DNA of 62,717 nt, filler included, from Folioceros fuciformis (Eukaryota): assembly GCA_049999805.1 (NCBI GenBank). It is 5 parts of 3 records of this genome, joined end to end, with 100 filler letters (N's around TTAATTAATTAA, not from the genome) between each part and the next. Parts side by side here need not be neighbours in the genome. Positions count along the whole stretch, not along the records: positions 47,273 to 60,389 come from JBNGIO010006339.1; 4 more parts are not named here. One strand, 5' to 3'. Both the position numbers and the translations under genes were made by a program. The notes beneath the pieces were generated by a model, which was not told the origin of the DNA, did no database searches, and saw nothing but the letters and a program-made list of their open reading frames with translations. Shown piece after piece: positions 17,803 through 61,424 of this stretch (within the stretch, counting starts at the first letter, position 1; each line of letters begins with the position of its first letter).

Positions 17803-19946
17803 ATGGATGTGGAGCTGGCCTCGGACTGGAGCTTACCTGATCAACCTGGCCCTCGCAGGCATGCAGGTCGCAGCAGTGCCACAACGGCTGAAACCGTGAT
17901 CAAGCTATGCCATCTCGCCCAGCTCGATGAGGCGGTTGAAGCTTTGGGTGGTCTTGTGCAGACGGAGCATTGTGTTTTCAAATCTCTGTTGTATGATATG
18001 CTGAAGCAATGTGTAGCTAAGAAGGAGCTTATCTTGGGTCGGCGTGTGCACGGTTTCATCTTAAAGTCAGGGTACCATGCGGACACCTTCTTGGGCTTCG
18101 ACATCCTGCGAATGTATGCTTCTCATAACAGGCTGCAAGACGCGATGGATGCATTCGACGAGGTTTCCTCACCAGATGCCTTCACGTGGTGTGCAATTAT
18201 CTCTTCCCATGTGATGCACGAACACGAAAGGCAAGCCAGACAACTGGATCATCGAATGCGCAGGTCAAGTGTGAAGCCAGACGGTCATGTATTTGTGGCC
18301 GCCCTTTAGGCTTGTGTAAGGGTGGCAGACTTGAGAACGGGGCAGCAGGTGCATGCTGATGTGTTGGCCTGTGGCGTTGAGCTTGACTTGTTTGTGTGTA
18401 ACTCCTTGGTGAATATGTACGCAAAGTGCGGCAGCTGAGAAGAGGTTCAGAGAGTGTTTGACGGACTTGGCCTAAAAGATGCGGTGACGTGGACTGCTTT
18501 GATCGCAGGGTATTCCCAGCAGGGCATGGGAGAGCAAGCCATTTGTCTCTACAGTGCTATGCAAGGGGAGGGCATCACCGTGCCTGGTTCCGTGACATTT
18601 GCGTGCCTCTTGCAGGCATGTGCGAGTGTGGGCATACAAGCCTTGGAGAAGGGAAGGCAGCTGCATGAGGAAATCAGTGAGCGAGGACATGAAGATGATG
18701 TAGCCAGCAGTTTGGTGAACATGTACGCAAAGTGTGGAAGCTTGGCAGAGGCTCAGAAAGCGTTTGATCAAAAGGATGTTGTGGCATGGAATACCATGAT
18801 AGCAGGCTATTCCCAGCAGGGAATGGGTCAGGAAGCTTTGGAAAACGGGAGGCAGCTGCATGCCCAAATCAGGAAAGGACGACACCACGCTGACATTTTT
18901 GTGGGCAACAGTTTGGTGAACATGTTTGCAAAATGTGGCAGCTTGGAAGATGCGGAAAGAGTGTTCAATCGGCTCTGTCAAAAGGATGTGGTATCGTGGA
19001 ATGCTATGATAGCAGGGTATTCCCAAAAGGGCATGGGCCAGGATGCCCTTCATCTCTATATTGACATGCAAGCAGAAGGCCTGGCTGTACCCAATTCTGT
19101 AACATTTACGTGTCTCCTGCAAGCATGTGCAAATGTGGCAGCTTTGCACATCGGAAGGCGGCTGCATGCGCAGATTGAAGAGCAAGGGCTTGAATCAGAT
19201 GTGTGTGTAGCCAGCAGTTTGATGAACATGTATGGAAAGTGTGCGAGCATGGTTGATGCGCAGAAGGTGTTCGATGCGTTGCACGAGAGACACTTCACCA
19301 CTTGGAATGCGCTGATTGCAGGCTACAGCTGTCAGGGAGACAGTGATATGGTCTTCGCTTTGGTCCATAGAATGAGCGGGTACGGCTTACAGCCAGTCGG
19401 CATCACATTCCTCAGTGTACTAACAGTGTGCAGCCACGTTGGTCTAGTCAACAAGGGGCTGAAGTACTTCGAGGCTATGAGTAGCCGCTATGGCATCATT
19501 CCCTCCGAAGAACACTATGCGTGCATGGTGGATGTCCTCAGTCGGGCAGGGCAACTATCCGAGGCCCTTGGGTTGGTAAGCACAATGCCTGTACCCCCGA
19601 ATCCTGCAGTGTGGCTAACCCTATTAGCTGCTTGTCGAAAGTGCGGAATGTTCAGGTTGCACGCCATGCTTTCAACCAAGCCGTGAAGCTGGACAACACA
19701 CAGTCCGCAACTTATCTGTTCATGTCAAACATGTACACCGGTGCCCAGCTTTGGGAGCATGCACAAAGGGCGGACCCCAGGGGAAAAATATTCAGAGCAC
19801 GAAGGCAGCCGGGTCAGAGCTGGTGGACAGACCAGCACGGACTGGTGCACAGTTTCTTGGTCGGAGATGAGAAGACCGGTCACCATCCAGCCAGGGTGAT
19901 ATCAGCCCAAGCCTTGTATCTAGATAGACATTGCTGGATTTCTTAG
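17803..19946 (+). pseudogene. PLS-E+ (WW-type) PPR pseudogene, paralogue of 3640-6636
   Basis: Same N-terminal module and PLS repeats as 3640-6636. Lesions: in-frame stops TAG 18307-18309 and TGA 18436-18438, internal motif deletions, and a 1-nt frameshift at ~19646 in E1. The shifted frame gives SATYLFMSNMY and RQPGQSWWTDQHGLVHSFLVGDE. Confidence 0.88.
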
Positions 19947-31232: not shown

Positions 31233-32709
31233 TGCACCNNNNNNNNNNNNNNNNNNNNNNNNNNNNNNNNNNNNNNNNNNNNTTAATTAATTAANNNNNN
31301 NNNNNNNNNNNNNNNNNNNNNNNNNNNNNNNNNNNNNNTGCATAACCTACGCCAACAGTTTGTGGAGGAGAGGGGAGGAACTACGTAGCCATGGAGCGAG
31401 GCAGGCATTAGGTGACTTCGGATGTGGAACTTGGTCTATGAAGAGATGGGGGCTAGAGGTAGGCTGTTAGGATAGTGGCAAGTGTGTCAAATTGTGTGTG
31501 AAACACTATGTACGTAGATAAGGGCCAGAAGCCTAAACCCAAAAGCTGTGTGTGCTTCCGCTTAGCAGCAGTGGGGGTAGTACAAAAGGTAGCCCGACAT
31601 TGTGGGATAACCAACACAAAATATGGACACCTGCAATTCCAGCGTCGTGTGTGTACAATTTCATCCTTGTCAGTGCACATACGTTTTTTCACAGGCCTCT
31701 GCCAATTGTCCGGTTTGGTTTTGGCCCTCTAACTCGCGTGCACGCCAAAGGGGACGCATAAACCGTGTGTTTGTAAAGACAGAGAGGGGGCGTGTCCCAT
31801 TTGGCATGCCATAGTCCAGCTCTACCTAGGTGCCGTCTTCCAACACAAGCTTGGTCTTGAGCGTGAATGCTGCACTGTAAAATGTGAGCGACAATTGCAC
31901 GTCCTCGACATGCTTCATCGTGTAGGCGTGCTTAGAGGGCCTTGCAAGTCGCCTTCTATTGGGTGGGAGTGTGCTTCAGCCATTTTCTGATTTGTCCGAG
32001 ATCACACATTGTGAGCACGAGACGATTCACGCGCTTGAGAACAATCCGCTCTACAAGGCGGAGTGCCCTGACTGTCAAGTAGCCCGGTCTATCATGCCAC
32101 TATCATTATCATAGGGCTCTAAGTTGCGTCACGTGGGTAAACCCTAAAATATGTAACGGCATTCCGTAAAACCCTGGATCATATATCGGGATCTGATTGG
32201 GAGGGGAAATTATGCTTGGATTGAATCATGAATTGCGTTTTTACGCCGTGTTTCCACTAGGTTTGTACCAGCCAAAAATCCTTGGGATTGGTTTATCTTT
32301 ATTTCATTCGCTTTCCACTAGTATGTACCAGCCAACAGATTTGTTTGGATTGGTCTACCTTGTTTTATCCTCTTTCCACTAGGTTTGTACCATCGACATA
32401 ATCCGTACACGCGGGGACATATACGGTGGCACATACATGGACGTACCTTGCAGGCTTTGGGACACGCGCCATTCATTCCTATGTTGGGCCACCAAGGGGG
32501 AGAATCATCTACATATGCTTTTCAGCCAATCGGTCTAACATAGTTGAAGCTCTAGGTAGCAGCCCACAGCCAAATACTTTAAAAGTGAGAAGGAAGAGAT
32601 GAAGTAAAGAGGAGAGCGCGACACAGAAAGAAGACACAAAACGAAGCTGTGGATGCAATTGGAAGGACCACTAGACCACAAATTTGATGCAGAGCTCCGT
32701 GTAGAGAGT

Positions 32710-42325: not shown

Positions 42326-45300
42326 TGGTATCACAGCAGGATGGATCCTACTACACCCCCTAGCATCTACGCCACTTGCAAGAGCAATAATTGCATCAAG
42401 AATCTCCTTCACGAGCACTTCTGGGTGGTGATTGCTGCACTGAAAAACTCTCTTAGCAGGTTTGGGGGCATGGCGGATACTTTTCTTGCAAGCGCAGTAG
42501 AGCATTACTACTCTTGAGTCCTGCGCAATGCCGAGACAGAGAGGAAGGTGCAACGCCCCATCTTGTGACCCGTTCGCAGGTAGGCCTGGACAAAGCGTCG
42601 TTGAACAGCATCGCAACTTGCAGCGTTTCTTCTCAAATCACTATCAGCCCCTTGCACAACCAAGATTGAGTCAAAACACAAGTCAGGATAGGCACGTACT
42701 GAAACCTGATCCCCTTGCCAACCTGAGGAATCAAATTCAACAAGAAATAGTAGCAGCACTCTCGATTTCAGAACAAAGAGCACAACTGCTAGTACGCACC
42801 AACCTTTGTAGTTCTTGCTCACGCAATCTTGACACTTCTTCATACACATTTGATAAGCTTTGGTCAAAGGTTCATGATCTTGTCAAGGCACAAGCAAATA
42901 GCACCAAGGAACATATTTCCTCCGTAAAAAATCAGGTTCATTCATTAAATCACCATGTTGAGTTCCTATCACGACAAGTTTATAACCTGAAGATTGCTCA
43001 GCATACAGAACCACCTGTCAGAACCTCAAATAAAACCTCAGTCGTGCAAGAACCAACAGCTGATTTCATGAAAATGTCTCAAGTATACCTATCCTCCTTT
43101 CCAACTCAACTTGAGCAATTTCAAGCTTTGGAAGTCGAGGCTTCTCAACCCCTGTGATCAGGGGCACATGTCATACAACAACCGAGGGCGGGGAATACAT
43201 AACCCAAACCAAAGAGGTAGGGGAACAGGTAGAGGCAGGGGTCGCCAATAGAATCCTAATCCAAATTTTGTAGTCGATCCTTTGTCCTTTAACCAGCCAC
43301 CCGCGTCCTCACAGTCAAGTTCAACTACATCCGTATCTGTAAACAGTCACACATCACAATTAGCTGCACTTGCAGCACATGCAGTTGTTTCAAATATGGC
43401 TCAACAGCCCAACACCGTGACTAACAACACTACTGTACATAATCTGAAAGTAGATTTTAAAGAAAAAGACAGATTTAACGGAACACAGTTTGACATTTGG
43501 GCATTACGGGTACAAACCATCCTTAAGGAACATGATCTTTGGGGTGTAGTGACAGGAACTGTACCAAACCCGCAATGGGATCTGCACAGGCAGATATTGA
43601 TGCATGAACCAAACTGGATCTGAGAGCTTTATGTGTCATCCAGTCAACATTGGATGGAACCATGATGTATCATACATGAGATGTGGACTCCACCAAAGCA
43701 GTTTGGGACTCCCTTACTCAAGTATACGAAGTAACTAATGGAACTTCGATGGTAAGTGTCACAAGGGACTTCTACAACCTAAAAATGAGGGAACATGAAT
43801 CAGTCGAATAGCATGTCATCAAGTTCAGAATGCTCGGATCCAGACTATCTTTTAGTGGCACAAAGACCACTGAGATGCAGGCTGCCATTACATTGCTGCT
43901 CTCTTTACCTGAAAGTTACAGGACTTTCGTGAGCAATCAAAGCTTGTCGCTACGAAATCTTGCCCAGGCAACTCTAGCAGGCCAAGCCCCTGCAGTCACT
44001 CTATCTGACGTGATTGGAGCTCTTCTCGAGGAAGAGTCCACACGTAAGGCAAGCAGAGGTGTCAACTCCCTCCGAAGAGAGACTTCAAATCGGGCGCTCT
44101 ACACAAACAGAGGCTCGAGGAAGCAACCACCCCGTCAGCCTTGGCCAAATAACAACAGTGGTGACAACTCACAATACAAAAAGCGACAAGCAGCATCTTC
44201 GGCAAAGAAAAAGGGTCCCTGCAACTGGTGTCTAATCCCTGGCCATTGGGAGGCTGAATGCCGTAAGAAGAAGGCTAATGAGCCCCGCCGTAGAACTCCA
44301 CCGGAGTCATATGTCGCTCACCTCAAATCCAGCACCATTCTAGCTGTCTGTAAGGTGTCAATAGCTTCTAATAAGCATGTCTGGTTCATAGACTCTAGGG
44401 CTTCATCCCATATCTGTCACTACAAGAAGTCGTTCTCTAAGTATAGGATTGTGACACCTGGTCAGTTTGTACTTCTTAGGGATGACAGTGGCCTCCAGAT
44501 CGAAGGCCTATGTCTTACTTCCAGATAGAACAACACTTGTTCTTATGGATGTCCTCCATGTACCCTCTATGGTTAAAAACCTTGTGTCTGTACGCAAGTT
44601 AACAACACACAACTGTCTAGATGTCTCTTTTAAAGGCCTGTAATGTACTGTCACAGATCCCCAGTATAAGAATAAGGTCTTAGCAACAGGTGCCCCTTTT
44701 CACGACCTGTATCAGCTGAACATTTCCTCCAAGCTTGGTCTCAAACCTGCACAAGCACATGTCAATGTCAGTCTTGAAACCAAGAAGAAAGAAGCAGTCA
44801 TGTTGTGGCACTGCAGACTTGCTCATGTTAACTTTGACAAGCTAAAGGCGATGGTGGCCAGCAACAATCTCTACAGAGAAAGATTTATGCTTCAATTTGC
44901 AAACAAACAGTTCTGTGAGTCATGTGTGCTTGGCAAACATCATCGGCTTCCATACAAGGATGTGAACCCTACTCGAGCTACCAAGGCACTAGAGCTGGTC
45001 CACATTGACCTGTGCGGGTCTATGTCCACAGCATCCCTAGGCGGAGCCCTATACTTCTTAACTTTTCTGGACGACTAGAGCAGGTACGCAATGGTGTACC
45101 TCATCAAGGAAAAAAGCCAGACCCTTGGCTGTTTCCAAGAGTATGTTCCATATGCACAATGGCAGACTGGTGAGACACTCATTGCATTGCGCAGCGACAA
45201 CGACGGTGAATTTACATCAAATGCTTTCAAGGATTATTGCAAGGAGCTGGGGATAGTCAGGCAACTCACCGAACCTTATACTTCCTCGCAAAATCCACTT

Positions 45301-47172: not shown

Positions 47173-47272
47173 NNNNNNNNNNNNNNNNNNNNNNNNNNNN
47201 NNNNNNNNNNNNNNNNTTAATTAATTAANNNNNNNNNNNNNNNNNNNNNNNNNNNNNNNNNNNNNNNNNNNN

Positions 47273-47707
47273 ATGGCACTACAATTCTGTAGGGAGTAGT
47301 GGCGAAAGAGCAGGTTTTAGGCAACAATCTGTGAGCATCAACGGGAGGATCGATGAATCGGCTGATCCAGAAGAATGGGGTTTGGCCGATTGAGATGCGT
47401 GCAAAAGCTACAAGCAAGCTAGCCTCAAAGATACAACATATGTGTAGAGCGTTTCTGATGGCACATTCTTGTAAAAATACCCAACACCCAACTCACCTTG
47501 AGTAGGGGTTCATCCGTTCATCCTCTAAACGTCTGAGTTCTAGCCCTGTCCACCATTGTGGGATGAGCATAGGTCAATCTTCAGTGGGCGAGCCAGAACA
47601 TGAAAGAGGTGTCCGAAAAGCATGCCATGGCCATTTAGATATTGACCAAGATTTTTAGTCAAAAGTTTCTCGTGCCACATCCTTTTGTGAAGCCCAGATG
47701 AGTGTGT
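47273..47707. repeat. Diverged direct repeat, copy 1 (copy 2 at 51781-52227)
   Basis: atggcactacaattctgtagggagtagtggcg...aagcccagatgagtgtg occurs twice, with scattered substitutions and a ~15-bp indel. Confidence 0.9.
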
Positions 47708-48501
47708 GATGTGTTTTCTAGCCGTTGTTGTCTCTCAAGCTTCGGTCTGAGGATAGCTTTTAGAGTCGTACAGAATCACATGGATTCGTAATTTTTGGAA
47801 TCCCAATTGCCCATGGCGAATAATTAAATGCAGCGGTAACAGCTGAGTCAACTTCCGGCAGCACGGGCTGTTCTGTTTCTGATCCAGGAGAGTATCTAGA
47901 ACCCGACTGAACATCAGCCACCCTCGGCAGAAAAGTTCTTGCCTATTTAGCCTGCTGCGCAGTCTTTGACCCAAAATGGCGTTTTAGTCTCGTTTTGTTT
48001 TGTGACAATTTGAAATATGTATTTTTAGATTATTATGTTATATTCACATAATATGTTATATATAATAGTTGTATATGTAATATATTCTGTGAATATTTTA
48101 CTAATGTATGGAATGAGGTGAGTGCATTGCTACACCTTCCTAGGTTGTATATGATTAAGAAGTGCTGCACATATTAGGGTTTGGAGGTTTTGTTTTTAAT
48201 GTTGAGACAACACGTATAGATCATTGTCATGTCAAAGAAATTATTGTCATGCAGTAAATTAAATTATGGTTTGAAATAAAATATATCATAATTAAATGAT
48301 GACATATGTGACTAAATCAGGGTCTTACAATAGAATATATCATAATTAAATGATGGCATATGTGACACCATTGTATAAATCTTACAAGGAAGTAATTTCC
48401 TATTCTTCAAAAAGAGCCGAAGATGGAGGAAGGCTAAAAAGGGTACTAGCCCTTTTCAACATCATGCCTCCCAAAATGTCATGATGTGGAATAATAAAAG
48501 G

Positions 48502-48701
48502 CCTACTTACCATTGGTGCGCGAAAGAAGCCGCTTAACTTGCTTATTTACTATCGGTGCCTGAAAGAAGCCGTTTAACTTGCCTACTTACCATCTGTGCC
48601 CGAAAGAAGTCGTTTAACTTGCCTACTTACTATCAGTGCTTGAAAGAAGTCGCTTACCTTGACTACTTTCCATCAGTGCTTGAAAGAAGCTGCTTAACTT
48701 G
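48502..48701. repeat. 40-bp tandem repeat x5, followed by a (GAAA)n microsatellite at ~48745-48782
   Basis: The gaaagaag core recurs at 48522, 48562, 48602, 48642 and 48682. Confidence 0.85.
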
Positions 48702-48747
48702 TGCTAGTTGCTGTTCTAAAAATTGGGATTTGAAGACTTTATAGAAA

Positions 48748-48784
<37 letters not shown>

Positions 48785-51780
48785 GGAAGATGGAAGATCC
48801 ATCTACCCCGTGATAAGGGGAACAACCCGCAATGGGGAAAAGCCAAGAATGAGTGTTAACCCCCTCATTCGTCTAGCCTGAAACTCCCTATAGCCCCTAA
48901 GATGTCACATTCAGGTATGAAGTATGACCTACTAACCACCGGGGCCGTTGAAGCCGTATCCGCCGCGCTTGATGTCGTCCGAAAAATCGTTGTTTGCCAA
49001 GGTCTTTTGTAGCATAATCGAAACCCGTTGCCAGAAAAATGCCACCACGCCGAATAGAGGAAGCCCTACGCCGCTCCTACTGATGTGATGGACCTTTGCG
49101 CATGTCTTCAAAAACCTGGAAAAATCCTTACCCATGGCCCGATGCGTTCTAAAAACTGTGTCGGCCATTGCTCTTTGCAAAGCAATGGGTATGTGTTGTT
49201 GAAAGAAGACCACCATAGAGGACATCATAAATTAAGCATAAATCTTACACACGATCTTTTGTTTCTATCGCTTTCTTAATTCACTACTTGCTATGCATAA
49301 CCAACCCCTATCTACACATTTCCTGCTCTTCGCCCACACACATTATTATTCTTGTTGCTTCATTTCAACTTTGAATTCTTTTGATATTTCAATCCTTTTG
49401 CCATTCCAATTAGATGTACTCTATCCATCATCACCCTTTCCTCCATTTACAAGCTCAGTCTATTCAAGGTGGCTATTATTTTTAAAGCATTAACTCTTGA
49501 TGGTGAAAGCTCTATGTCATTTAGAGTAAATGGCCTGCTATGATTCATCATATTACTTGGTTGTGCAGGACTTGGACGTTGCACTTGTGGTTGATGGTTT
49601 CTTGATCCAATATGAGGATTCCTTTGCAACATTTCCAAATACCTTTCATATTCATAATCCAAGAAGTTATCTAGTCGTTCATTCGTTGCTTTCAACAATT
49701 GAAACATTCTGGTTCTCATTTTTCTCTTTTTGAAGGGACGGACTAACTCCAATGGAATATCCAAGATGGGTTGGCCTGCCTCCGGTGGAACTTCAAAAAC
49801 ATCACGCTTGCGTTTCAAATATTGCTGCAAGAAGACAAACAAGGTATTACGACATTGTACGATTTAAATTAAAAAGTGCACAAAAAATAAAAACAAAGCT
49901 AGAAAGAATATCAATCCACTTGTTGCTATGTGAGCATGATATGGCGCACACTTACCTTGAAACAAGGCGAAAATGAAAATGCAGATTTAGCATAGTCATA
50001 ATTTGCCTGAGTCCTTTCCCGCTTGGCAAGGCTAGGTAAATCCTCCGATGCTACATCATCTTCCTCGCTCCGCTTCCGTTTCAAAGATGGCTGTAAGAAG
50101 TGAAATAATGTTATTACACGACATAGTTAAAGTAATAAAATTAATTTATCGATTATGAAAGTGTGTGTATATATATAAATAAATAAAAATAGTAATAATA
50201 ATAATAATAACTTACCCGTATCCTTTGGAGTTCAGAGGGGCCATATAACTCCTGTGGGACAGGTTCACTCTCTTCCAAAGATGCCTATAGGAATGCAAAG
50301 ATAAAATATCATTATGTTGCATAGTTAAACTACTAAAGTTAATAGACATATCTCTAGAAATAGTAAAAGCAATAGAGAGATATCTAGAAGTACTAAAATC
50401 AAAAGAGAGATATTTACAAGTGTAAACTCACTAGAGAGTTATGGAGAATTAAGTAGTGCGAATTGCATGAAAGAAGATACAAAACCAAACAAAATAAGAT
50501 CCGTTTTTGGCAATGACAATGTTATGTTAAGCACATATACCTGAATAGGGAGAGAGAATGAAGATGCTTGCTGGTCTGCTGCGTGCTCCTTGTGTTGTGA
50601 GGGCCTATAATATGCCTAGAAAAGGGAAACAACATATTTTAAATAAGGACCGTTAATACACAAATATTAAGCTAGAAGAGGATTTCTAGAGACCTTAGGG
50701 AGTGTGAAGACACAAATATTAAGGCAGTAGAGGTTAGGAATATTAGGTTATTCCGTTAGGAATATTAATACATGAGAGATTAAGATAACAAAGGATGTCT
50801 AGAAACCTTACCCTTCGAAAGAATCGAACTACATGAGATAGAAGCGTTATGTCGAATTTGCTCATGAGTTCTAGAAAGTTCATTGTCGGCAATGGAAGCT
50901 TCATGTTGAATTTGCTGATGAGTTCTAGAAAGTTTATAGTTGACAATAAAGCCTATAGGTGGCAATAGTGTACGAGATACACGACACGCATAGAAATGGG
51001 GTACTCAACACGAGGATAAGCACACAAAAAAAGTATAGGGTTAAGATTAGGGTTTAGAAAGTTTATAGTTGACAATATAGCCTATAGGTGGCAGCAGTGT
51101 ATGAGATACACGACACGGATAGAGATGGGGAACTAAGCACGAAGATAAGGACACAACAAAAAGTATACGGTTAAGCACTCTTATATACTGACACACTTAT
51201 ATACGCATATATAGTAAGTCTTAAGTTGTAAGTCCGTAAGACCGAAGCCATACTATCTCGGTACTAAGTCCATACATAGCAATTAGTAAACTTACTCAAT
51301 ACGTCATCCCCTCCATTGCACTCACTCCTCTCCTTTCCCCTTGAAAGCATTATCCCCATCCTCTCTCTCTACCCTTTCCTTCAATTGTAATATAAAATAC
51401 ATAAACTAGGTGTCATGTTTCTTCGTGATTGATGGTCTTTTTTGGCAAATGCTATATTTGTATTTCACTTTCTAACATGTCCTGCAAATTTGGCATGCTT
51501 CGAGGCTTTACAAGGATGACCAAATTGCACACATGGTGAATATCTTGGTTTGGTGTCAAGCATTCTCTTTCGAGGGACCGTACCTCAAAGTATTTAGCCC
51601 TGTGAACATGTTTCTTGTGTTCAACTTTGTTGCAAAAGAATTGCTGTGAATCTTGTTGTTGCTATGGGTATTGCTAGACGGTTGAAGCTCTAGGGGCCTT
51701 GCTATGACGTCCTTGTACATTTTGCTGCTAGTGATGCAAGTGTGTCATTCACTACTCACAGCAGAAGGGCAGCCTAGGCA

Positions 51781-52227
51781 ATGGCACTACAATTCTGTAG
51801 GGAGTAGTGGCGAAAGAGCAGGTTTTACGCAACAGTTTGTGAGCATCAGCGGGGGGATCGATGAATCGGCCGATCCAGAAGAATGGGGTGTGGTCGATTG
51901 AGATGCGTGCAAAAGCTACAAGCAAGCTGGCCTCAAAACAAAACCCAATTAAGATACAGCATATGTGTAGAGCGTTTGCGATGGCACATTTCTGAGAAAA
52001 TACGCAACACCCAACTCACCTTGAATAGGGGTTCATCCGTTCGTCCTCTAAACGTCTGAGTTCTAGCCCTGTCCCCCATTGTGGGATGAGGATAGGTCAG
52101 TCTTCGGTGGGCGAGCCAGAACATGAAAGAGGTCCGAAAAGCATGCCATGGCCATTTCGATATTGACCAAGATTTTTAGTCAAAAGTTTCTCGTGTCACA
52201 TCCTTCTGTGAAGCCCAGATGAGTGTG
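51781..52227. repeat. Diverged direct repeat, copy 2
   Basis: Partner of 47273-47707. Confidence 0.9.
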
Positions 52228-54210: not shown

Positions 54211-54908
54211 GGCATATGGGTTCTTTCCTCTCTACTTTTCGGGCATTTGGAGAATCGTTGCTATGGACTTAACGCAGGTGAAGCCCGATGGTTAATCACA
54301 TGAACAAAGCTTCCCACATCCCAAGGTGGGGCTGAAAGGTGAACTGAAACCAGATCCTGGGTTTACCAGATTCATGACATTACCAGATACTATATGTATC
54401 TTTTCCTCGGGGTATCTTAGACCGCACTTGGGGTCACGTGAAGGGAAGGGTGTATCTGGCTCTCTCTTCTTGGAGGCTAGCTGCTGAACGTGGAGGGGTG
54501 GTCGCGGATTCCCATCATCCTCCAGGGTCCACCCTCGTGTTGTGCCCCTCGGTGATGATACACTGTATGCAAAGTCTGGCTCTCATTTGTCCGTCTGCCC
54601 TCCAGCCCACTATAGGCTGTGTTGTGTTGCCTGTCCCGTTCTCCTTCCACCTGCGGATCTTTCGCTGTTCTGTTTCTGCCATGTGATTGCATCTGCCTGC
54701 ATCTCACAGTTGCTGTGTCCCAAACGAACGAACTTCGTTCCAAGGGGAGACAACAAGGAGTGGAAACTGGTACGCAGGACCGATATATTATTATTATTCC
54801 GATTATTAATATTATTATTGACTAGGGTAGCAAACTAGGGATTCCTGTCACACATGCAGCAGTAAGCCGCGATGCCAAACGCAGCAAGAGCAAATCAAAG
54901 AATCAAAG

Positions 54909-55388
54909 CTAGTCACTTCCTTTCGGCAGCAGAGAACCAAGGGCATCCGCCACGGTCCTAAGCGCGGCCTCCTCTTCCGCGTCGAAGGGATCCAGAACAT
55001 CACTATCCACATCAATCTGGCCGAGGATGCGTCCCTCCTTGTCCCGAATGAGCACCACCAACTCGCTCTTGGTGAAAAGATTGCACGCAATGTAATTAGC
55101 GCGGGCAGCAACATCACCGACGTTCTGGTCTTCGCCTTCAGCAACTGCCGTGCCGCATACTCCACAGCCGACCGCGATTCTTTTGTGCTCCGTCTCCCGG
55201 CCACTGAAAGCCTCCAGCACCAGTTCCTTCCCGTCCCTGTTCAACATGTAGAGGTAAACAGACGTGTAGGGACTCCCCGCGTTGCGCACGGCGTCGGCTG
55301 TCGCCTGGAGCATCTCCTGCCGGGACTCAGATTCCTTGGCACATAACTGCAAAGACTCGATCACTTTTCCAGGTTGAACAATGGGCAT
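54909..55388 (-). CDS. msrC: Stand-alone GAF-domain protein, free methionine-(R)-sulfoxide reductase (fRMsr/MsrC, type II)-like; intronless
   Basis: 159-aa ORF (alternative ATG at 55415) with YLYML..LVLEAFSGRETEHKRIAVGCGVCGTAV, GDV....NYIAC, TKSELVV and GQIDVDSD...FDAEEEAAL. These are the diagnostic fRMsr motifs (GVCG, [H/Y]IAC, SE[I/L]V, D[I/V]DS). Confidence 0.8.
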   Translation of the reverse strand: MPIVQPGKVIESLQLCAKESESRQEMLQATADAVRNAGSPYTSVYLYMLNRDGKELVLEAFSGRETEHKRIAVGCGVCGTAVAEGEDQNVGDVAARANYIACNLFTKSELVVLIRDKEGRILGQIDVDSDVLDPFDAEEEAALRTVADALGSLLPKGSD

Positions 55389-56299
55389 CTTGCCGCGCAC
55401 GATCGCCAGCAGCATCAGTTTCGGGAATAATGGCCCTGTCACGAGTCAATGCTGCGGCAGACCACCTCCCTTCTCCCTGTACGGTGACAGGGACGTGGGG
55501 AGGGCAGACCGGTGGACGGGGGACAATTCCTTGACATTTGTTTGCTTCTCCCATTTTTTTGAAGTTTCGAGCCCGTGCCTACTGACCCCCTTTTGTGAGT
55601 TGGTTCCTTAGCTTCACGTCAAAGACAACGGAAATCATGGTAGGTCCATATAGTGAACGAAGTCTAGAAAAGAGACGTACTGTATGTTCTCAGTCTATTC
55701 GGAAAAAGATTTTTAAATTATTTTGATATAATCTTGTACAGAAAAGAATATGAATCATTCAAAATAAACTAGTGGGGAAAAAAAAAAAATGCAAGTAACG
55801 CGTACAACCAAAACAGAGGTGGAGGGGCTAGACGTTTTTATAAATTTATTATAATAAAGAGATGATAAATCAACAAATATCAAGTCTACCATGGTTGACA
55901 TGAATATACAGCCTTGTAGGTTATTACGAAACAAGTATGATAATGGATGTGAATGGATAAGAAAAAACATGATAGTTTAATACAAATAAACATCTGGTTC
56001 CATTCAAACTCCATGATTAAACACTCCCTATAGGGGCTATATGGAAGGAAGGTAGGTAGGTAGGTATCTATCGCCTATGGACCGCAAACCATCCTAAGAG
56101 ACGTTCGAAGTTATGGAGGACTACTCGCAACATATGTATCTCGACTCGCTCTATTCTCGCCACAAAAACCTCCTAAGTTCGCGCTGGCACGTTGTGTGCC
56201 TGGATTTGTAACTACCAACGACCTAAGAGCTCAGATTCTCCAAGCTCGCTCGTTTGCAACCGAGATCTGCGAGTTGCTCGCTTGATTTGCATGCGTGAC

Positions 56300-57529
56300 T
56301 CACGACCAGCTATGATATTGCGAAGGTTTGTTGAATGAAATGTAAGAAGACGAGGAACGGAACATGGCGTCGTCCCCCTCACCATCTGCGGTCGTCCAGG
56401 AAATGTAGTTGCTATGCCTGAATCCTTGGCTCTCGTCGGTGCACACCGACGATGTGAGAACATTTTGGCCTTTGAGGCGCTGAGCCTGCTGCTGCGCAAA
56501 TTCGTGCTCCCTCTGATTGTCGGCGATGCGGTGAGGAAAGTTGAGCAGAGCGCGGGCTCCCCGCATTTTGAAAGCAGCTCGGTCGTATGCGCACGCTGCG
56601 TCTTCCGCAGTGTCGAAAGTGCCGAGCCACACCCGTGCTCCCTGGTTCTTCGAGTCCCGGATCTCGGCAGCAAATTTGCCCCAAGGTCTTCTCCTCACGC
56701 CCCGGTAATTCCTTCCAGGGGAGCTGCGGGGAGGACAGGTATCGCCGTTGTTATCGTTGTTCTTGTTGCTGTTGTTGTTGTTGTCCTTGTGTTGCACTGG
56801 CGTATCCCTCCGCAGCTCCGGCTCCTCGCTATAGCCGATGCTGTCCTGCAGTGGCTGCACACATTGATTCATCATGGCGTGCTCTTCCTCTCGGTTGCAC
56901 TGGTCGGCCGGAGCTTGGAAATTGTCCATCCGAGCCGCACCTTCGCATGGGAGCGGCAGCTGCCAGTAGCAGTGATCGGATGCCACGGTTGCAGAGCTCG
57001 GCCTGGCAGCAGTCTGTGACACCGATTCCTCCATGGCCTTCATCAATCTCTGGAACTTCTGCTTCACCTCCTGGCTTGTCTGGCTTCCGACCTTGAGCTT
57101 CTTGGCCGCAACCATCCATGCGGGAAACGCAGCTCCTCTGCTCGGGCTGCTCTCCGCGTCGCTGGAGAGAGCGGAGGAAGGCGAACTGTACGGGCTAGCA
57201 CTTGCCCCGGCATTGGAGCTCCCGCTGCTGTCCAGGATGATTTGCGCTACCCGCTGCAGCTCGTCGGGAGTGGCGGGTCCTTGCAGTTTCCCAGGCTGTG
57301 GGCTGATCCACATCTCCGAGCCGGAGACGCTACTGGTGCCGGACTCCCCGCTCGCGTACTGACTATCCTCCAGCAGCTGGTTGTAGAAGTAGTTGAGACA
57401 CTCTCTCTCTCTCACGCCCTGGCTCTGATACAGCTCGGCTCGCTTCCTCTTGGAAAGCTCGTCCCCCGAGTCCCCCAGACTCCACTGGCAGGAGCTCATC
57501 TCCAGAATTCCGTTCCCTTCCAAGGACAT
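56300..57529 (-). CDS. ERF: AP2/ERF transcription factor (ERF subfamily), intronless
   Basis: Single AP2 domain [60 protein letters not shown] with the ERF-type AAEIRD signature, preceded by a poly-Asn tract. Confidence 0.92.
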
Positions 57530-58748
57530 GATAAGGCTTTTGATCCGCTTCAGGACTTACTGCAATTGGAGCGCTCAAATGTTGCGACCGCTACTGTCAA
57601 AAGAACAATGCTGATTCCGTGACTCTATCTCATACAAACTGTCAGCAATTGGACTCCAATTGCTGCAAATCAAACGGCTCTATCGAGCTCAAATGCAGTC
57701 TGAAAGAACAGCAATTCACTTCCAATGGAATCTCGATCTCCAGCAATCGGAATGTTCCGAAACTACTAGACTAAGTGCTACAACAGCAATGCAAATTCCA
57801 ATCTGATCCCGGCCAGGAGCAATTGGCCGTGTTGAAATGCAGGTGGCACTGGCGCAACAGCGATTCTACTTCCAAAATCACAGCTTCAAATTCATCCAAG
57901 GACTTTGAGGAAAATCTGAATGCTTCCCTCCCAAGAAAAGAAAGAAACGGGACAGCAACTCAACAGAGCCTCAGGCGCGGCACAAGACCTTCTGAGCTCA
58001 CAAAGTTTGCAACCTCATTTCAAGAGCTCAAGCATTGGCAAGCATCGCCAAGATGGAAATGGGTGCAGAACGGAGCGCTGGGGTCAGAGCCAGGAACGAC
58101 AAAGGAGGGGGGGTCAGAACTTGCGATGTATGACAAGTCTGGCATGAGACACGGGTTCTCCTTAAGAAATATACGGGCCACATGGAGGCTGAGGTTTTCT
58201 GCATTGACTCCATGATTTTGTTGTCTTTGTTTACAAAAGAAGAAGAGGACACTGGGCGTGCTCAGGGGAGGGAGGGCACAGGTTGAGTCTCCCGCCGTAA
58301 GAAAGCTGAGGGGGACGTGCAGCTGCTGACCAGGACCGCCACCCACCTTCTCGGCACCTCCCACAAGGAGTCCAACTAGACGGGGACGGGCACTGAAATT
58401 CTTGAGTGGCTGCCGCGGAACGGGACTGATCGGCAGGCAGTGGAGCGTTCCGTCCGCAGGAACAGGTTTCCGTTCAGGTGGATGCTTCATGGAATCTCCC
58501 CTTCCGGGTCCTTTGGGATCTGAGTTCAACGATGGCGTCCCGACATGTCAGACCCCTCTCGGTCCTTCGCAACAGAACTGCAGTTTGCCAGATAGTCATT
58601 GACGATTGGAACTTGGGAAGCCCCTCCTGCACATCTACCACCATGAGGCAGTGCCTCCCCCTAGCGGGTGTCTGGGACCATAGATTGTCGTTGCGTCAGT
58701 GCACGGGCACCTGTGGAAGCCCACCGCCTGTTGAGGAAACTGTTTAAG

Positions 58749-60200
58749 TTACTTGCTACTGCTGGGTTTCGGGAGGCAAGAAAAACGGAATGAAATGGAA
58801 GCAGCAGTACTCACAGGGACGGAGAGAAGCAGGCCTGAAGATGACACCAGAGAAGGCAAACCCCGTCGAGCTGGAAGAGGGACTTGCTTCAGTGCACGGA
58901 GGGCTGCCCTGGCCCTACCTACTGTGTACGACGCACAGGAGGCCATGTTGGGTCCATGACAGTGACATGTAGGCAGATGAAGCCCGGTGTTAGGCGTACG
59001 AACCCCGTCCGCGGGAGTCGCGGCACCAATCTGAGAGAGATAAATCCAGTCTTTCTCCTGGAACGGGCGTACCTGGGCAGACTGATTCTTTGCAATCCAG
59101 TCGCACGGAGACGCGTCAACCTGAGGGACGCCTGCTCGTGAAGCCAAAGTCACCCAGAACCTGTCCCAAATGTAGGTTGCGTCTCCCAGCCGTAGCTCTT
59201 GGTGGCCGAAGATCTCTACTGTTGAATGAGGGGTCTTCGGGGAGTTCAACATGTCCTTCGAAGTTTCAGTGGTAAGAGTCTCTAGTGATACCTTTGAGGC
59301 GTCTGAGATGAGCCCCAGGCTCCTCGCCTTCTCTAGTATGCTGCTGTGGCTGCCTGGCAACCTGGTCTCGGAGAGAAACTTGGGTTCTGAAGTCATGTCT
59401 TGCGTGGATCGGGAGACCTCCGACAGAATCTCTGCCTTGCGCTGCCTTGCTTTGTTGAGCACGTCACATGCAGCCGCGCTGCCCAGTGTGCCCAGGAGGG
59501 GTGGACGTTGTCTGAAGGGTGACAAGACTGGGTATGTGCTGTCAGGGGACCAGGTGAACATCACTACTGATCCCTTGGTGCCTGGAGAAGCACATATGAA
59601 GCATCCTCCTGCTTCCAAGGCTCCCTGCAGCAGTCACCAGATTATGCGTGTTGCAAGCTCTGCGCTTGTTATGACGAAAGCAGGAGCGTGATTTGAAGGT
59701 TGGCAAACTGGACCACACCTTCATCCTGCCTCCACGCATCTTGTCAAGCAAAGTTTGCACAATCCTGCCTCGCGGAGGTTTCTCCCTCTGCCCCACATAC
59801 TGTAACCATGCCGAGCCAGTGCCCTGGGTGCGTAAGACACGTCCAAATTCATTACCTCTGAAACAGGTGTTGCGGACCAAGGTGAGTACCTGCCTGGAGG
59901 ATTGCCACCACCACCCTGAACTGCACTGGGGAGTCTGCATTACTCGCTGCAAGTTTTCCGATATCTAGAGTGGCATAACCGAACTCCTGCCGAAACAGAT
60001 GTTTGGTACCCCATGTCAACAGGTGGGTGACAGACACACACTGACCCAAGTTACACCGATTATAGCCATCAGGTGTTACCTCAGAGATTTTCACAGCTTC
60101 TGAAAGCAGTTTGTCTCTGGCCCTATCCAGAATTCCCCGTGTTTCTCGACAAGAAATAATAAAATTGGCCAACTCTTCCTTGAAAACTACCCCACAACAG
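58749..60200 (-). CDS. Uncharacterised multi-exon gene (partial model)
   Basis: A 289-codon ORF (58749-59618) plus upstream exon-like blocks with GT/AG boundaries (EELANFIISCRETRGILDRARDKLLSEAVKISE; EFGYATLDIGKL). Family not recognised and exon joins unresolved. Confidence 0.4.
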
Positions 60201-61424
60201 AATCTAAAATGAGGAGTCGTCATGATGCTATCTATCCTAACTACCCAGAAGAAGATACATAAGGTTATCCAGACAGTACATAATTTCAAACCACATTATC
60301 AAGAAAAAAAACGAAGTTATCCATCCAGAATATCCGGAAAGAAAGCGCGTGAGAAAGAGAGAGAATTGATACCAGGAGGCGCCTTACTCNNNNNNNNNNN
60401 NNNNNNNNNNNNNNNNNNNNNNNNNNNNNNNNNTTAATTAATTAANNNNNNNNNNNNNNNNNNNNNNNNNNNNNNNNNNNNNNNNNNNNTTCCGGATGAT
60501 CATTTCTGCATGAAGGCTGCTGAGATGGAGAGTCTGACCCTGCAGCGAAATCGCACGGTCTGGCGAAGAGGCCGGGACCGGGGACTGTGGGGACGACCTG
60601 GAATGCATGAAGACTGGTGGTGGTATTGCCTGCCTGGTCCAAAGGGAGCTCGGTCCTCGCAGCCATTTGCGAGCTGTGACGGAGCCTCGCAGATCTGCGA
60701 CTCCGACTGGTGAGTCCTTGGCTGCATAATGACTGCAAAATGTTGTTGAAATTCTGCACCGTTGTTCAAGATTGCGATCTTGAACAACGACCTGATGCGT
60801 AGCTGAATTGCAGTGAAGCCAACAGATGTGAGGGAAGAAATCCTGGCCGATTCTTCGTATAAATGGGAAAGCAGGGGCTCGTCACGGCAGGTTGAATGGA
60901 ATTCTGTGACACACGGTCCTGCGTTTTGGAAATGTGGTGGTTTCACTTAGCAATTTCAGCACTCAATCGATGTGTCAGCGGTGCAGGAGCTTGGCGACTC
61001 GTTGAGCAGCAGAAGAAGAGAGCGCGTCTGGGATGACGCGCAGCTTTTCCGTATGCATGGGCTAGCGCAGGCCCGCCCGCGTGATGGACGTCATATTCGG
61101 GATTCTCGTGAATCTGGACCTTGCAAGTCTGGTTTGACGCATTCAGTGCTTGGATGAGATTGCAGATCTCACTTTTGTTGTTCGGGAGAGCTCGCAAGTA
61201 TCAAGCTCAGAGCATGAGCAAGCTGGCACGCTTGTTTTGACGAGGTTGATTCTTGCAGGATGAAGGAGGATTTTGGACGTGGAGTCTGGAGTAAATTGTC
61301 TCAGACTGAGTGGGGACGGGTTTGTGAGTCTGTGCTGGCCTTGGAACTCCTGGTGCAAGATGATGAATATGTTCCAGATTCTGTTTTCTGTCGGGTTCTC
61401 ATCGACTTGAGGTCCAAATAGACT

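What the first reader, a model, noticed from the sequence alone, without database searches (positions are those of the whole stretch)
54909..55388. Prokaryote-type free methionine-R-sulfoxide reductase (fRMsr/MsrC) gene embedded in a land-plant chromosome: horizontal-transfer candidate
Seen in the sequence: an intact, intronless 159-aa stand-alone GAF protein with all fRMsr motifs. It lies ~900 bp from a plant-specific AP2/ERF gene on the same ungapped contig (47273-60389), which argues against simple contamination. Established: fRMsr is known from bacteria, archaea and fungi/unicellular eukaryotes, whereas characterised plants repair Met-R-O with MsrB. The residue equivalent to E. coli Cys84 (KIACVRI) is replaced by ETEHKRI, the type II pattern seen in prokaryotes, rather than the yeast-like three-Cys type I. 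Inference: a horizontally acquired salvage route for oxidised free methionine in a seed-free plant.
Basis: partly seen in the sequence, partly recalled or inferred. Interest (0 to 1): 0.85.

Follow-up and report, generated by a model that had tools for sequence, protein, structure and literature searches.

The report
Bacterial-type free-methionine repair gene in plant
A small, intact and transcribed gene for a bacterial-type enzyme that probably repairs oxidised free methionine sits in a seed-free land plant, and it belongs to a gene family shared by liverworts, hornworts, lycophytes and ferns that most likely came from soil bacteria long ago.

Summary
Window 54909-55388 (-) encodes an intact, intronless 159-aa stand-alone GAF protein. 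Its best sequence and fold matches are free methionine-R-sulfoxide reductases (fRMsr), closest to the type II enzyme of Thermoplasma. It carries both cysteines needed for activity (Cys78, Cys102) and has His68 where E. coli has Cys84.

The gene lies 911 bp from an AP2/ERF gene on a 13.1-kb gap-free contig. Its composition is plant-like, its DNA depth matches its neighbours, and contigs of a spliced (RNA) data set from another study cover it.

This is not a private acquisition. Orthologues at 63-71% identity occur in Marchantia (already named L-methionine (R)-S-oxide reductase), Riccia, Calypogeia, Nothoceros, Diphasiastrum and Adiantum. Together with Gemmatimonadota and a few Polyangia-like bacteria they form a well-supported subfamily. 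A single plant clade is not rejected (AU p 0.53), but the backbone is weak.

The best reading is an old bacterium-to-land-plant transfer kept in seed-free plants. The enzyme activity is inferred, not shown: this subfamily has Ser where canonical fRMsr has a conserved Trp. I found no paper describing a plant fRMsr, and reviews say the enzyme is confined to microbes. Interest is moderate.

The parts
54909..55388 (-). Coding sequence of the 159-aa fRMsr-like GAF protein (stop codon 54909-54911, ATG at 55386-55388), with no intron
   Evidence: ORF and translation; GAF_2/GAF; best sequence and fold matches are fRMsr structures; collinear with plant orthologues from first to last residue.
55083..55085 (-). 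Codon of Cys102, the predicted catalytic cysteine (equivalent to Thermoplasma Cys84 and yeast Cys125)
   Evidence: Alignments. Invariant in 12 of 12 plant and 259 of 259 bacterial subfamily sequences. The role of Ta Cys84 is from passages of PMC6211008.
55155..55157 (-). Codon of Cys78, the second essential cysteine (equivalent to Thermoplasma Cys60 and yeast Cys101). Cys75, three residues before it, makes a CGVC motif seen only in the window protein.
   Evidence: Cys75 occurs in 1 of 12 plants and is not among the four commonest residues in 259 bacterial sequences.
55389..55415 (-). Possible 9-residue N-terminal extension from an in-frame upstream ATG at 55415
   Evidence: Read from the sequence and the longer frame. 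Homologues start at the position of the ATG at 55388. The RNA contig ends at 55400, which does not settle the question.
54250..54908 (-). Region downstream of the stop codon covered by contigs of the spliced (RNA) data set; a likely long 3' UTR or an adjoining transcript
   Evidence: table 8: X3 records 17-19 cover 54250-54475, 54454-54754 and 54755-55400 with no mismatches.
56300..57529 (-). Neighbouring AP2/ERF transcription-factor gene (context showing the contig is plant DNA)
   Evidence: Pfam AP2 at E 1e-14. An X3 contig of 1800 nt covers 56056-57855.
58194..60187 (-). Neighbouring spliced gene with 87-94-bp GT..AG introns (context showing eukaryotic DNA and that run X3 is RNA)
   Evidence: table 5: X3 contigs skip 58727-58813, 59624-59717 and 59986-60078, with CT..AC ends on the + strand. 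There is no Pfam match for the ORF at 58749-59633.
47173..47272 (.). Artificial linker (N44-TTAATTAATTAA-N44) marking the left end of the real contig
   Evidence: The same linker occurs at 15048-15147, 31239-31338 and 60390-60489.
60390..60489 (.). Artificial linker marking the right end of the real contig

Best explanation
The gene encodes a cytosolic, stand-alone GAF-fold thiol oxidoreductase of the free methionine-R-sulfoxide reductase family (type II-like, with two cysteines).

Proposed mechanism (inferred from the family, not measured here):
- Cys102 attacks the sulfoxide of free L-Met-R-O. This releases Met and leaves a sulfenic acid on Cys102.
- Cys78 and/or an external thiol resolves the sulfenic acid, and the thioredoxin system then re-reduces the enzyme.
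- Tyr47, Glu109, Asp126 and Asp128 bind the substrate's sulfoxide and amino-acid moiety.

Origin: a soil bacterium related to today's Gemmatimonadota or Polyangia donated the gene to an early land plant or its ancestor. The gene then passed down vertically. It survives in liverworts, hornworts, lycophytes, ferns and this plant. It appears to be missing from seed plants, where published work assigns free Met-R-O reduction to MSRB.

Shown here: the gene is intact, sits in plant DNA, is transcribed, has orthologues in several plant lineages, has bacteria as nearest kin, and has the fRMsr fold with invariant active-site residues. Inferred: the enzyme activity, the single transfer event, its timing, and the loss in seed plants.
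For: Gene and family:
- Intact 159-aa ORF with a GAF domain.
- Best PDB sequence match is the Thermoplasma type II fRMsr 4mmn at 2.6e-19.
- AF2 model has pLDDT 88.0 and pTM 0.86.
- Foldseek ranks 1-17 listed are all fRMsr-family chains. 4mmn aligns at rmsd 1.2 A over 132 columns. Generic GAF domains start at rank 19.

Catalytic residues:
- Cys78 and Cys102 align with Ta Cys60 and Cys84. Passages of PMC6211008 describe both as critical for activity.
- Y47, E109, D126 and D128 match yeast Tyr70, Glu132, Asp149 and Asp151, listed as substrate-binding or catalytic residues in passages of the 2021 preprint 10.1101/2021.02.26.433065 (alignment).
- S43, Y45, Y47, T66, H68, C78, Y99, C102, N103, E109, D126 and D128 are invariant in 12 of 12 plant and 259 of 259 bacterial sequences.

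Plant residence:
- Same gap-free contig as an AP2/ERF gene and a gene with GT..AG introns.
- DNA depth is about 10 (X1) and about 6-8 (X2) across 52-60.4 kb, fRMsr included.
- GC3 is 0.656. Six other window ORFs have 0.51-0.72, and 80 bacterial homologues have 0.73-0.97.

Transcription: run X3 comes from a different study and year and has spliced contigs. It covers 54755-55400 at 100% identity, has nothing in 55401-56055, and covers the ERF gene separately.

Plant orthologues:
- Named species are Nothoceros, Calypogeia (2 copies), Marchantia, Riccia (2 copies), Diphasiastrum and Adiantum, at 63-71% identity.
- Several lie on scaffolds of 4.7-114 Mb.

Bacterial kin:
- 556 of 600 pattern hits in species-representative prokaryote genomes encode relatives.
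- Of the best 80, 77 are Gemmatimonadota.

Tree:
- The subfamily clade of 64 rows has support 97/94. Liverworts (99/87), the hornwort pair (100/98) and ferns (100/99) each group as expected.
- The plant label needs only 2 changes on the tree, a value as low in 0 of 500 shuffles.
- The tree with plants held as one clade has a log-likelihood 1.11 higher, p-AU 0.532.

Plant-only features: a one-residue insertion at 116-119 occurs in 6 of 12 plants and 0 of 259 bacteria. Gly151 occurs in 12 of 12 plants against 16% of bacteria.
Against: - No activity was measured for any member of this subfamily that I could find.
- The Trp reported as strictly conserved in canonical fungal fRMsr (yeast Trp66; passages), and present in E. 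coli and in more distant type II-like sequences, is Ser43 here. The H[I/V]xCD motif is YIACN.
- NCBIfam gave no family match.
- The free ML tree does not recover plants as one clade. The fern trio sits apart on an unsupported branch (46/0), and only 24% of 200 bootstrap trees have one plant clade.
- No column is both near-fixed in plants (>=10 of 12) and rarer than 15% in bacteria.
- Mean plant-plant identity (68%) barely exceeds plant-bacterium identity (64%).
- With outgroup rooting, plants are not nested inside Gemmatimonadota. They lie in an unresolved grade with Polyangia-like sequences, so neither the donor nor the direction of transfer is proven.
- Absence from seed plants, mosses and algae rests on top-120 lists and on the literature, not on genome searches.
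- X3 is labelled RNA only as a guess; I infer RNA from its spliced joints.
- Bacterial gene neighbourhoods show no Msr or thioredoxin partner.
Confidence: 0.68

Rival explanations
1. Recent, lineage-specific horizontal transfer into this plant alone.
For: The gene is intronless and has the same length as its bacterial homologues, at 57-68% identity. The exact protein is not in the 15-billion-protein collection.
Against: Orthologues at 63-71% identity exist in liverworts, a hornwort, a lycophyte and a fern, and the window protein groups with them. No bacterial sequence is closer to it than the plant ones: the best plant is at 71% and the best GTDB locus at 68%. GC3 is already at host level.
Confidence: 0.04
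2. Bacterial contamination or a misjoin in a draft assembly.
For: The window is a chain of short contigs joined by artificial linkers. The DNA runs that hold the stretch may be the assembly's own source.
Against: There is no gap between the gene and the AP2/ERF gene. DNA depth is even across them. An identical sequence appears in a spliced data set from another study. Composition is plant-like. Orthologues lie on multi-megabase plant scaffolds.
Confidence: 0.02
3. Several independent transfers from similar soil bacteria into different plant lineages, for example ferns separately from the rest.
For: The free ML tree splits the ferns from the other nine plant sequences, and only 24% of bootstrap trees have one plant clade. 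Plant-plant identity between lineages (60-72%) overlaps plant-bacterium identity (56-74%).
Against: The split rests on a branch with 46/0 support. The tree with plants held together is slightly better, p-AU 0.532. The one-residue insertion at 116-119 is shared by ferns, hornworts and the window and occurs in 0 of 259 bacteria. Gly151 is in 12 of 12 plants.
Confidence: 0.1
4. Vertical inheritance from an early eukaryotic or organellar ancestor, with wide loss (no horizontal transfer into plants).
For: fRMsr occurs in fungi and unicellular eukaryotes (passages). My lists could hide weaker algal hits below thousands of bacterial ones.
Against: The nearest relatives are Gemmatimonadota and Polyangia-like bacteria, not cyanobacteria, alphaproteobacteria or fungi. 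The canonical type I enzymes tested are far more distant: yeast E 1.9e-11 and E. coli at 39% identity. No named alga, moss or seed plant is in the best 120 of either search.
Confidence: 0.08
5. The protein is a GAF-fold small-molecule binder, or a reductase of a different sulfoxide or other substrate, and not a free Met-R-O reductase.
For: The conserved Trp of canonical fRMsr is Ser, and the His and Asp of the HxxCD motif are Tyr and Asn. There is no NCBIfam match. No Msr or Trx genes lie next to the bacterial homologues; an M28 peptidase gene lies upstream in 70 of 80 loci. No member of the subfamily has been characterised, as far as I could find.
Against: Both catalytic-type cysteines and the Tyr, Glu, Asp, Asp set are invariant in 271 sequences. 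The closest solved structure is an active fRMsr with the same two-Cys pattern and a YLAC motif. JGI and a Marchantia record name close homologues L-methionine (R)-S-oxide reductase, though these are automatic names.
Confidence: 0.22

Closest known systems
[quoted passage not shown]
   Same: It is the best PDB sequence match (E 2.6e-19) and among the top fold matches (rmsd 1.2 A, TM 0.87 on the target). It is also a stand-alone GAF protein. It has the same two essential cysteines (Ta Cys60 and Cys84 = window Cys78 and Cys102) and no cysteine at the E. coli Cys84 position. It has a Y-[IL]-A-C motif and the IDxDSD acid pair (roles from passages of PMC6211008).
   Different: Identity is only about 36%. 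Ta keeps the Trp (KYDWVGFY), where the window has PYTSVYLY. Ta is archaeal, and the window gene is nuclear in a plant.
E. coli MsrC/YebR, N. meningitidis and S. aureus fRMsr, and yeast YKL069W (type I, three-Cys fRMsr)
   Same: They share the fold (Foldseek E 1e-12 to 5e-13), the catalytic and first resolving cysteine, and the Tyr, Glu, Asp, Asp substrate residues.
   Different: His68 replaces the second resolving cysteine. Ser43 replaces the Trp. YIACN replaces H[I/V]xCD. Identity to E. coli MsrC is 39% over 109 residues.
Uncharacterised GAF proteins of Gemmatimonadota and Polyangia-like bacteria (the 'YTSVYLYM' subfamily)
   Same: Identity is 56-74%, the length is the same, and all twelve active-site positions I checked are identical. 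They share one clade with the plant proteins at 97/94 support.
   Different: The bacterial genes have GC3 of 0.73-0.97 against 0.656 here. They lack the loop insertion at 116-119 seen in half of the plant proteins. They usually lie downstream of an M28 peptidase gene.
Marchantia polymorpha MARPO_0094s0043 and orthologues in Riccia, Calypogeia, Nothoceros, Diphasiastrum and Adiantum
   Same: Same orthogroup at 63-71% identity, collinear over the full length. The Marchantia record is already named L-methionine (R)-S-oxide reductase.
   Different: The window protein alone has Cys75, giving a CGVC motif, and a five-residue C-terminal tail. None of these plant proteins has been studied in any paper I could find.
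Plant MSRB acting on free Met-R-O (soybean GmMSRB2/4)
   Same: Same proposed physiological task, salvage of free Met-R-O (abstract and passages of PMC3680461).
   Different: It is an unrelated fold and family. That paper presents MSRB as the plant solution and fRMsr as a microbial enzyme.

Membership tests
fRMsr (GAF-type free Met-R-O reductase, MsrC) | Stand-alone single GAF fold of about 150-180 residues | tested here: met
   Pfam GAF_2/GAF cover residues 21-153 of 159. The AF2 model has pLDDT 88. Foldseek ranks 1-17 listed are fRMsr-family chains.
fRMsr (GAF-type free Met-R-O reductase, MsrC) | Catalytic cysteine (yeast Cys125, E. coli Cys118, Ta Cys84) | tested here: met
   Cys102 aligns with it and is invariant in 271 subfamily sequences.
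fRMsr (GAF-type free Met-R-O reductase, MsrC) | Catalytic Cys set in an H[I/V]xCD motif (canonical fungal and bacterial form; passages) | tested here: not met
   The motif is Y99-I-A-C-N103. The active Thermoplasma enzyme also has Y-L-A-C, so this is a type II-like departure.
fRMsr (GAF-type free Met-R-O reductase, MsrC) | First resolving or essential cysteine (yeast Cys101, E. coli Cys94, Ta Cys60) | tested here: met
   Cys78 in GVCG.
fRMsr (GAF-type free Met-R-O reductase, MsrC) | Substrate-binding and catalytic Tyr70, Glu132, Asp149, Asp151 (yeast numbering; passages) | tested here: met
   Tyr47, Glu109, Asp126 and Asp128 align and are invariant.
fRMsr (GAF-type free Met-R-O reductase, MsrC) | Conserved Trp (yeast Trp66) | tested here: not met
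   Ser43 occupies the column in all 12 plant and 259 bacterial subfamily sequences. E. coli and four more distant type II-like sequences keep Trp.
fRMsr (GAF-type free Met-R-O reductase, MsrC) | Stereospecific, thioredoxin-dependent reduction of free but not peptide-bound Met-R-O | not testable with these tools
   This needs an enzyme assay or complementation. No data were found for this subfamily.
Type I (three-Cys) fRMsr | Second resolving cysteine (yeast Cys91, E. coli Cys84) | tested here: not met
   His68 sits at that position and is invariant in the subfamily.
Type II fRMsr (Thermoplasma type) | Only the two cysteines equivalent to Ta Cys60 and Cys84 are conserved, and the Thermoplasma enzyme is the closest solved relative | tested here: met
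   The T-E-H motif at 66-68 is shared with other two-Cys sequences.
Gene of horizontal (bacterial) origin in a eukaryote | Physically integrated in host nuclear DNA and expressed | tested here: met
   It shares a gap-free contig with an AP2/ERF gene and a spliced gene, DNA depth is even, and a contig of a spliced data set covers it. GC3 is host-like.
Gene of horizontal (bacterial) origin in a eukaryote | Nearest relatives outside the host group are bacteria, with support | tested here: met
   Subfamily clade at 97/94 holding plants plus Gemmatimonadota and Polyangia-like sequences only. 77 of the best 80 GTDB loci are Gemmatimonadota.
Gene of horizontal (bacterial) origin in a eukaryote | Absent from the host's sister lineages (algae) and other eukaryotes in a way that excludes vertical descent | tested here: inconclusive
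   No named alga, moss or seed plant is in the best 120 of two searches. The lists are capped, and no plant or algal genome collection was available.

The most novel reading that the evidence does not exclude
Seed-free land plants keep a dedicated free-methionine-R-sulfoxide reductase. A Gemmatimonadota- or Polyangia-like soil bacterium donated it once, around the time plants moved onto land. Seed plants lost it, and MSRB took over the task there. The Ser-for-Trp active site of this plant and bacterial subfamily would mark a third, uncharacterised mechanistic type of fRMsr, possibly with altered substrate range.
Probability: 0.4. Interest if true: 0.6.

Novelty: new member of a known kind. Interest (0 to 1): 0.45.

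Why it matters
The passages I read describe fRMsr as an enzyme of prokaryotes and unicellular eukaryotes (PMC6316033; PMC3680461), later extended to multicellular fungi (2021 preprint). They describe plants as relying on MSRB for free Met-R-O.

An intact, transcribed fRMsr-type gene that several seed-free plant lineages share would correct that picture. It would add a redox-repair gene to the set of bacterial genes acquired early by land plants. It would also offer a natural test of gene replacement (fRMsr against MSRB) in a tractable model, since Marchantia carries an orthologue.

The practical stakes are modest. The family and chemistry are known, and one orthologue already carries the enzyme's name in a database.

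Tried and rejected
- Whole-genome search of the window's own assembly: none is held.
- NCBIfam scan: no family.
- Earlier notes of this scan: nothing for this genome or this sequence.
- Sequencing runs: no listed holder is on record as RNA. I treat X3 as RNA only because of its spliced joints. Parts without X3 cover are not evidence of silence.
- Taxon of the window: a search with the PPR ORF 3640-6642 (residues 400-1000) gave only paralogue-level hits. Identities were 32-48%, highest for Diphasiastrum proteins and one unnamed record. The loop insertions resemble the hornwort sequences. The lineage stays unresolved beyond 'seed-free land plant'.
- Bacterial gene neighbourhood as a clue to function: an M28 peptidase with a PDZ domain lies upstream in 70 of 80 loci, an M42 peptidase in 26 and a PolX-like gene in 24. 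There is no Msr or thioredoxin gene, so this is not informative.
- Strict plant synapomorphies (at least 10 of 12 plants and under 15% of bacteria): none. Relaxed thresholds gave Q5, T30, V34 and G151.
- ESM Atlas: the nearest clusters are bacterial GAF proteins, with Gemmatimonadota commonest in the top one. No structure search was possible.
- Literature searches:
  - 'fRMsr' + 'plants' found 15 papers, none on a plant fRMsr judging by title and abstract listing.
  - A six-term search with min_terms 2 was too loose to be useful.
  - 'horizontal gene transfer' + 'land plants' + 'Gemmatimonadetes' found 23 papers, none relevant by listing.
  - 'methionine sulfoxide reductase' + 'horizontal gene transfer' + 'land plants' found 10 papers, none relevant by listing.
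  - One search failed on term syntax.
  - The 2022 catalogue of land-plant HGT (recalled: Ma et al., Mol Plant) and Gruez et al. 2010 are not held.
  - The main texts of PMC12448838 and PMC12890914 contain none of 'GAF', 'methionine', 'sulfoxide' or 'Gemmatimonad'.
  - Supplementary tables of HGT catalogues were closed and may list this family.
- I did not run a complex prediction or a second structure job, because neither would change the reading.
Full report
**Observation.**
The minus strand holds an open frame at 54909..55442. From the ATG at 55388 it encodes 159 residues and a stop. Pfam finds one GAF domain spanning almost the whole protein: GAF_2 at E 1e-11 and GAF at 6.3e-11, both above their cut-offs. 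NCBIfam finds nothing.

A phmmer search of PDB sequences returns 10 distinct sequences at E <= 0.001. Every one that carries a specific name is a free methionine-R-sulfoxide reductase or its yeast or E. coli homologue. The best is Thermoplasma acidophilum Ta0848 (4mmn) at 2.6e-19.

I took E. coli K-12 msrC from its annotated record. BLASTP against it gives 39% identity over 109 residues, E 4e-17. That alignment puts window Cys78 and Cys102 on the E. coli cysteines of GVCG and IAC. It puts window His68 on the cysteine of IACVRI.

The neighbouring ORF at 56300-57529 (-) has an AP2 domain at E 1e-14 and lies 911 bp away. No N occurs between 47273 and 60389.

**Two corrections to the observation.**
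First, the N runs that bound this stretch are N44-TTAATTAATTAA-N44. This looks like an artificial six-frame-stop linker (my recollection of the convention). The window is thus a chain of separate contigs, and the gene's true context is one 13.1-kb contig.

Second, an in-frame ATG at 55415 could add nine residues.

**Is it plant DNA, and is it expressed?**
Other ORFs of the window encode:
- PLS-type PPR proteins, one with an E motif;
- Na/Ca-exchanger exons;
- a ferric-reductase-type NAD-binding domain;
- copia gag/pol fragments.

These lie on other contigs of the chain, so they show only what kind of genome this is.

On the gene's own contig I laid three public runs. Two DNA runs of one sample cover 52-60.4 kb at an even depth (about 10 and about 6-8), fRMsr included. 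They may be the assembly's own source.

A third run (X3) comes from another study and year. Its contigs skip 87-94 bp with CT..AC ends at 58726/58814, 59623/59718 and 59985/60079. These are GT..AG introns of a minus-strand gene, so I treat X3 as RNA, although the tool labels that a guess.
- X3 has a 646-nt contig over 54755-55400, which is the whole coding sequence, with no mismatch.
- It has further contigs down to 54250.
- It has nothing in 55401-56055.
- It has a separate 1800-nt contig over the ERF gene.

The gene's GC3 is 0.656. Six other window ORFs range from 0.51 to 0.72, and 80 bacterial homologues range from 0.73 to 0.97. Contamination or a misjoin is very unlikely.

**Relatives.**
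In the 5.8-billion-cluster collection the exact protein is absent. The top hits are plant proteins interleaved with Gemmatimonadota MAG proteins at 62-69% identity:
- the hornwort Nothoceros (68%);
- the liverworts Calypogeia (70%, two copies), Marchantia (within the cluster of P0006) and Riccia (66%, two copies);
- the lycophyte Diphasiastrum (68%);
- the fern Adiantum (63%).

Several plant records lie on scaffolds of 4.7 to 114 Mb. The Marchantia record already bears the name L-methionine (R)-S-oxide reductase.

A profile of nine plant sequences ranks nine plant-like clusters first (254-277 bits). Bacterial and metagenome proteins follow from 252 bits down. No named moss, seed plant or alga is among the best 120.

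Of the best 80, 77 are Gemmatimonadota, one is a Polyangia MAG, one is a Bacillota-labelled MAG and one is labelled 'delta proteobacterium'.

**Phylogeny.**
The careful tree has 75 rows:
- 12 plant sequences;
- 41 of the 80 GTDB loci (every second locus plus the non-Gemmatimonadota ones);
- 7 metagenome proteins;
- 15 of the 69 size-filtered representatives, chosen to leave out the longest branches.

It used 152 columns and the LG+C20+F+G4 PMSF model. Results:
- All plant sequences fall with the Gemmatimonadota and Polyangia-like sequences in one clade of 64 rows (UFBoot 97 / SH-aLRT 94) on a 0.67 stem.
- Inside it, nine plant sequences form a weakly supported clade (62/77) next to a Polyangia trio (55/77).
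- The fern trio (100/99) sits apart on an unsupported branch (46/0).
- Most Gemmatimonadota form their own clade (72/90).
- Liverworts (99/87, with Calypogeia outside Marchantia plus Riccia) and the hornwort pair (100/98) are recovered.
- The window protein joins Diphasiastrum plus the liverworts (88/62).

The plant label needs two changes on this tree, a value as low in 0 of 500 shuffles. 24% of bootstrap trees have one plant clade. Holding the plants together gives a tree with log-likelihood 1.11 higher and p-AU 0.532. A single origin is therefore compatible with the data but not demonstrated. An earlier quick tree of 100 rows had the plants as one group with support 67.

Some features occur only in plants. 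A one-residue insertion at 116-119 is present in 6 of 12 plants and 0 of 259 bacterial sequences. Gly151 is present in 12 of 12 plants against 16% of bacteria.

Against a strong signal, no column met my strict synapomorphy threshold. Mean plant-plant identity (68%) is close to plant-bacterium identity (64%).

**Function.**
The AF2 model built on the nine-sequence alignment has pLDDT 88.0 and pTM 0.86. Foldseek against the PDB lists fRMsr-family chains at ranks 1 to 17, with generic GAF domains following from rank 19. 4mmn aligns at rmsd 1.2 A over 132 columns.

Passages of PMC6211008 say the Thermoplasma enzyme reduces free Met-R-O with a thioredoxin system. They say Cys60 and Cys84 are critical, that Cys84 is the nucleophile, and that no Cys60-Cys84 disulfide forms. 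The reference they cite calls this a 'type II' enzyme. The alignment maps these residues to window Cys78 and Cys102.

Passages of the 2021 preprint on fungal Msrs list the canonical features in yeast numbering:
- catalytic Cys125 in H[I/V]xCD;
- resolving Cys91 and Cys101;
- Trp66, Tyr70, Glu132, Asp149 and Asp151.

In alignment A2 the window has Cys102, Cys78, Tyr47, Glu109, Asp126 and Asp128. It differs at three points: His68 stands for Cys91, Ser43 for Trp66, and YIACN for the HxxCD motif. E. coli and four more distant two-Cys sequences keep the Trp.

All twelve positions I checked (S43, Y45, Y47, T66, H68, C78, Y99, C102, N103, E109, D126, D128) are invariant in 12 plant and 259 bacterial sequences. 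This pattern fits a constrained catalytic site. It also defines a subfamily that, as far as I could find, nobody has assayed.

I therefore commit to free Met-R-O reduction as the most likely activity (about two in three). I mark it as inferred. The N-terminus aligns with the bacterial start and has no added presequence, which suggests a cytosolic protein.

**Comparison with what is known, and novelty.**
The papers I could read describe fRMsr in three ways:
- as 'unique to some unicellular organisms', with plants using MSRB for free Met-R-O (PMC3680461, abstract and passages);
- as found only in prokaryotes or unicellular eukaryotes (PMC6316033, passage);
- as also conserved in multicellular fungi, with plants again cited for MSRB (2021 preprint, passages).

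Four searches listed no paper on a plant fRMsr. Term look-ups in two recent papers on plant horizontal transfer found none of my terms in their main texts. The 2022 catalogue of land-plant transfers is not held, and supplements were closed, so the family may already be listed there.

The window gene is a new member of an existing but unstudied plant orthogroup of a known enzyme family. It is not a new kind of system.

**Verdict.**
The horizontal-transfer interpretation is right in kind but wrong in scale: this is an old, shared land-plant gene and not a private acquisition. Interest is moderate (0.45). The distribution contradicts textbook statements and sets up a clean test of gene replacement. 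The chemistry is known, however, and one orthologue is already named in a database.

Noticed in passing
window 15048-15147, 31239-31338, 47173-47272, 60390-60489: Each of these 'gaps' is N44-TTAATTAATTAA-N44, an artificial linker with stops in all six frames. The window is a concatenation of separate contigs, so adjacency across these points is not real. Plain 100-N gaps occur at 13605, 14237 and 39732.
   Followed up: yes
window 47273-51780: This AT-richer stretch (GC 0.35-0.42) has about 7 times the DNA depth of the rest of the contig (70 against 10). A head-to-tail joint links 51780 back to 47273 in both DNA runs. It is a tandem or otherwise multi-copy 4.5-kb element. Only two ORFs of 90 aa or more were found in 47273-52000, of 99 and 138 aa, and neither was identified.
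   Followed up: partly
window 55155-55166 (-), residues 75-78: The window protein alone has Cys75, which makes a CGVC (CxxC-like) motif with the conserved Cys78. Nine other plant sequences have His and two have Lys at that position, and Cys is not among the four commonest residues in 259 bacterial sequences. It could provide an extra resolving thiol.
   Followed up: partly
window 3640-6642 (-) and 18439-19686 (+): Two long intronless PPR ORFs, the first with an E motif (PLS-class, the RNA-editing type). Best database identities are 32-48%, highest for Diphasiastrum proteins and one unnamed record.
   Followed up: partly
window 8052-10179 (-): Two adjacent ORFs each carry a Na_Ca_ex domain (E 4e-27 and 6e-22). 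They are probably exons of one cation-exchanger gene.
   Followed up: no
window 43812-44528 (+): Copia-type gag and Pol beta-barrel fragments, a retrotransposon remnant.
   Followed up: no
window 58194-60187 (-): An expressed gene with at least three very short introns (87-94 bp, GT..AG) seen in RNA contigs. Its largest ORF (58749-59633) has no Pfam match.
   Followed up: no
window 57536: A single G>A difference between the window and the RNA-type run X3. It lies a few bases upstream of the AP2/ERF start codon, within its transcript (depth 10.4, one contig). It could be an allele, a strain difference or an error.
   Followed up: no
L001-L080 (bacterial loci): In 70 of 80 bacterial loci the fRMsr-like gene lies just downstream of, and on the same strand as, a gene for an M28 peptidase with a PDZ domain. 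A conserved 248-aa ORF family without a Pfam match lies downstream in 76 loci.
   Followed up: partly
L049 (Bacillota-labelled MAG): Its fRMsr-like protein nests inside a Gemmatimonadales clade next to L057 and L061. This suggests a mis-binned contig and not a Bacillota gene.
   Followed up: no
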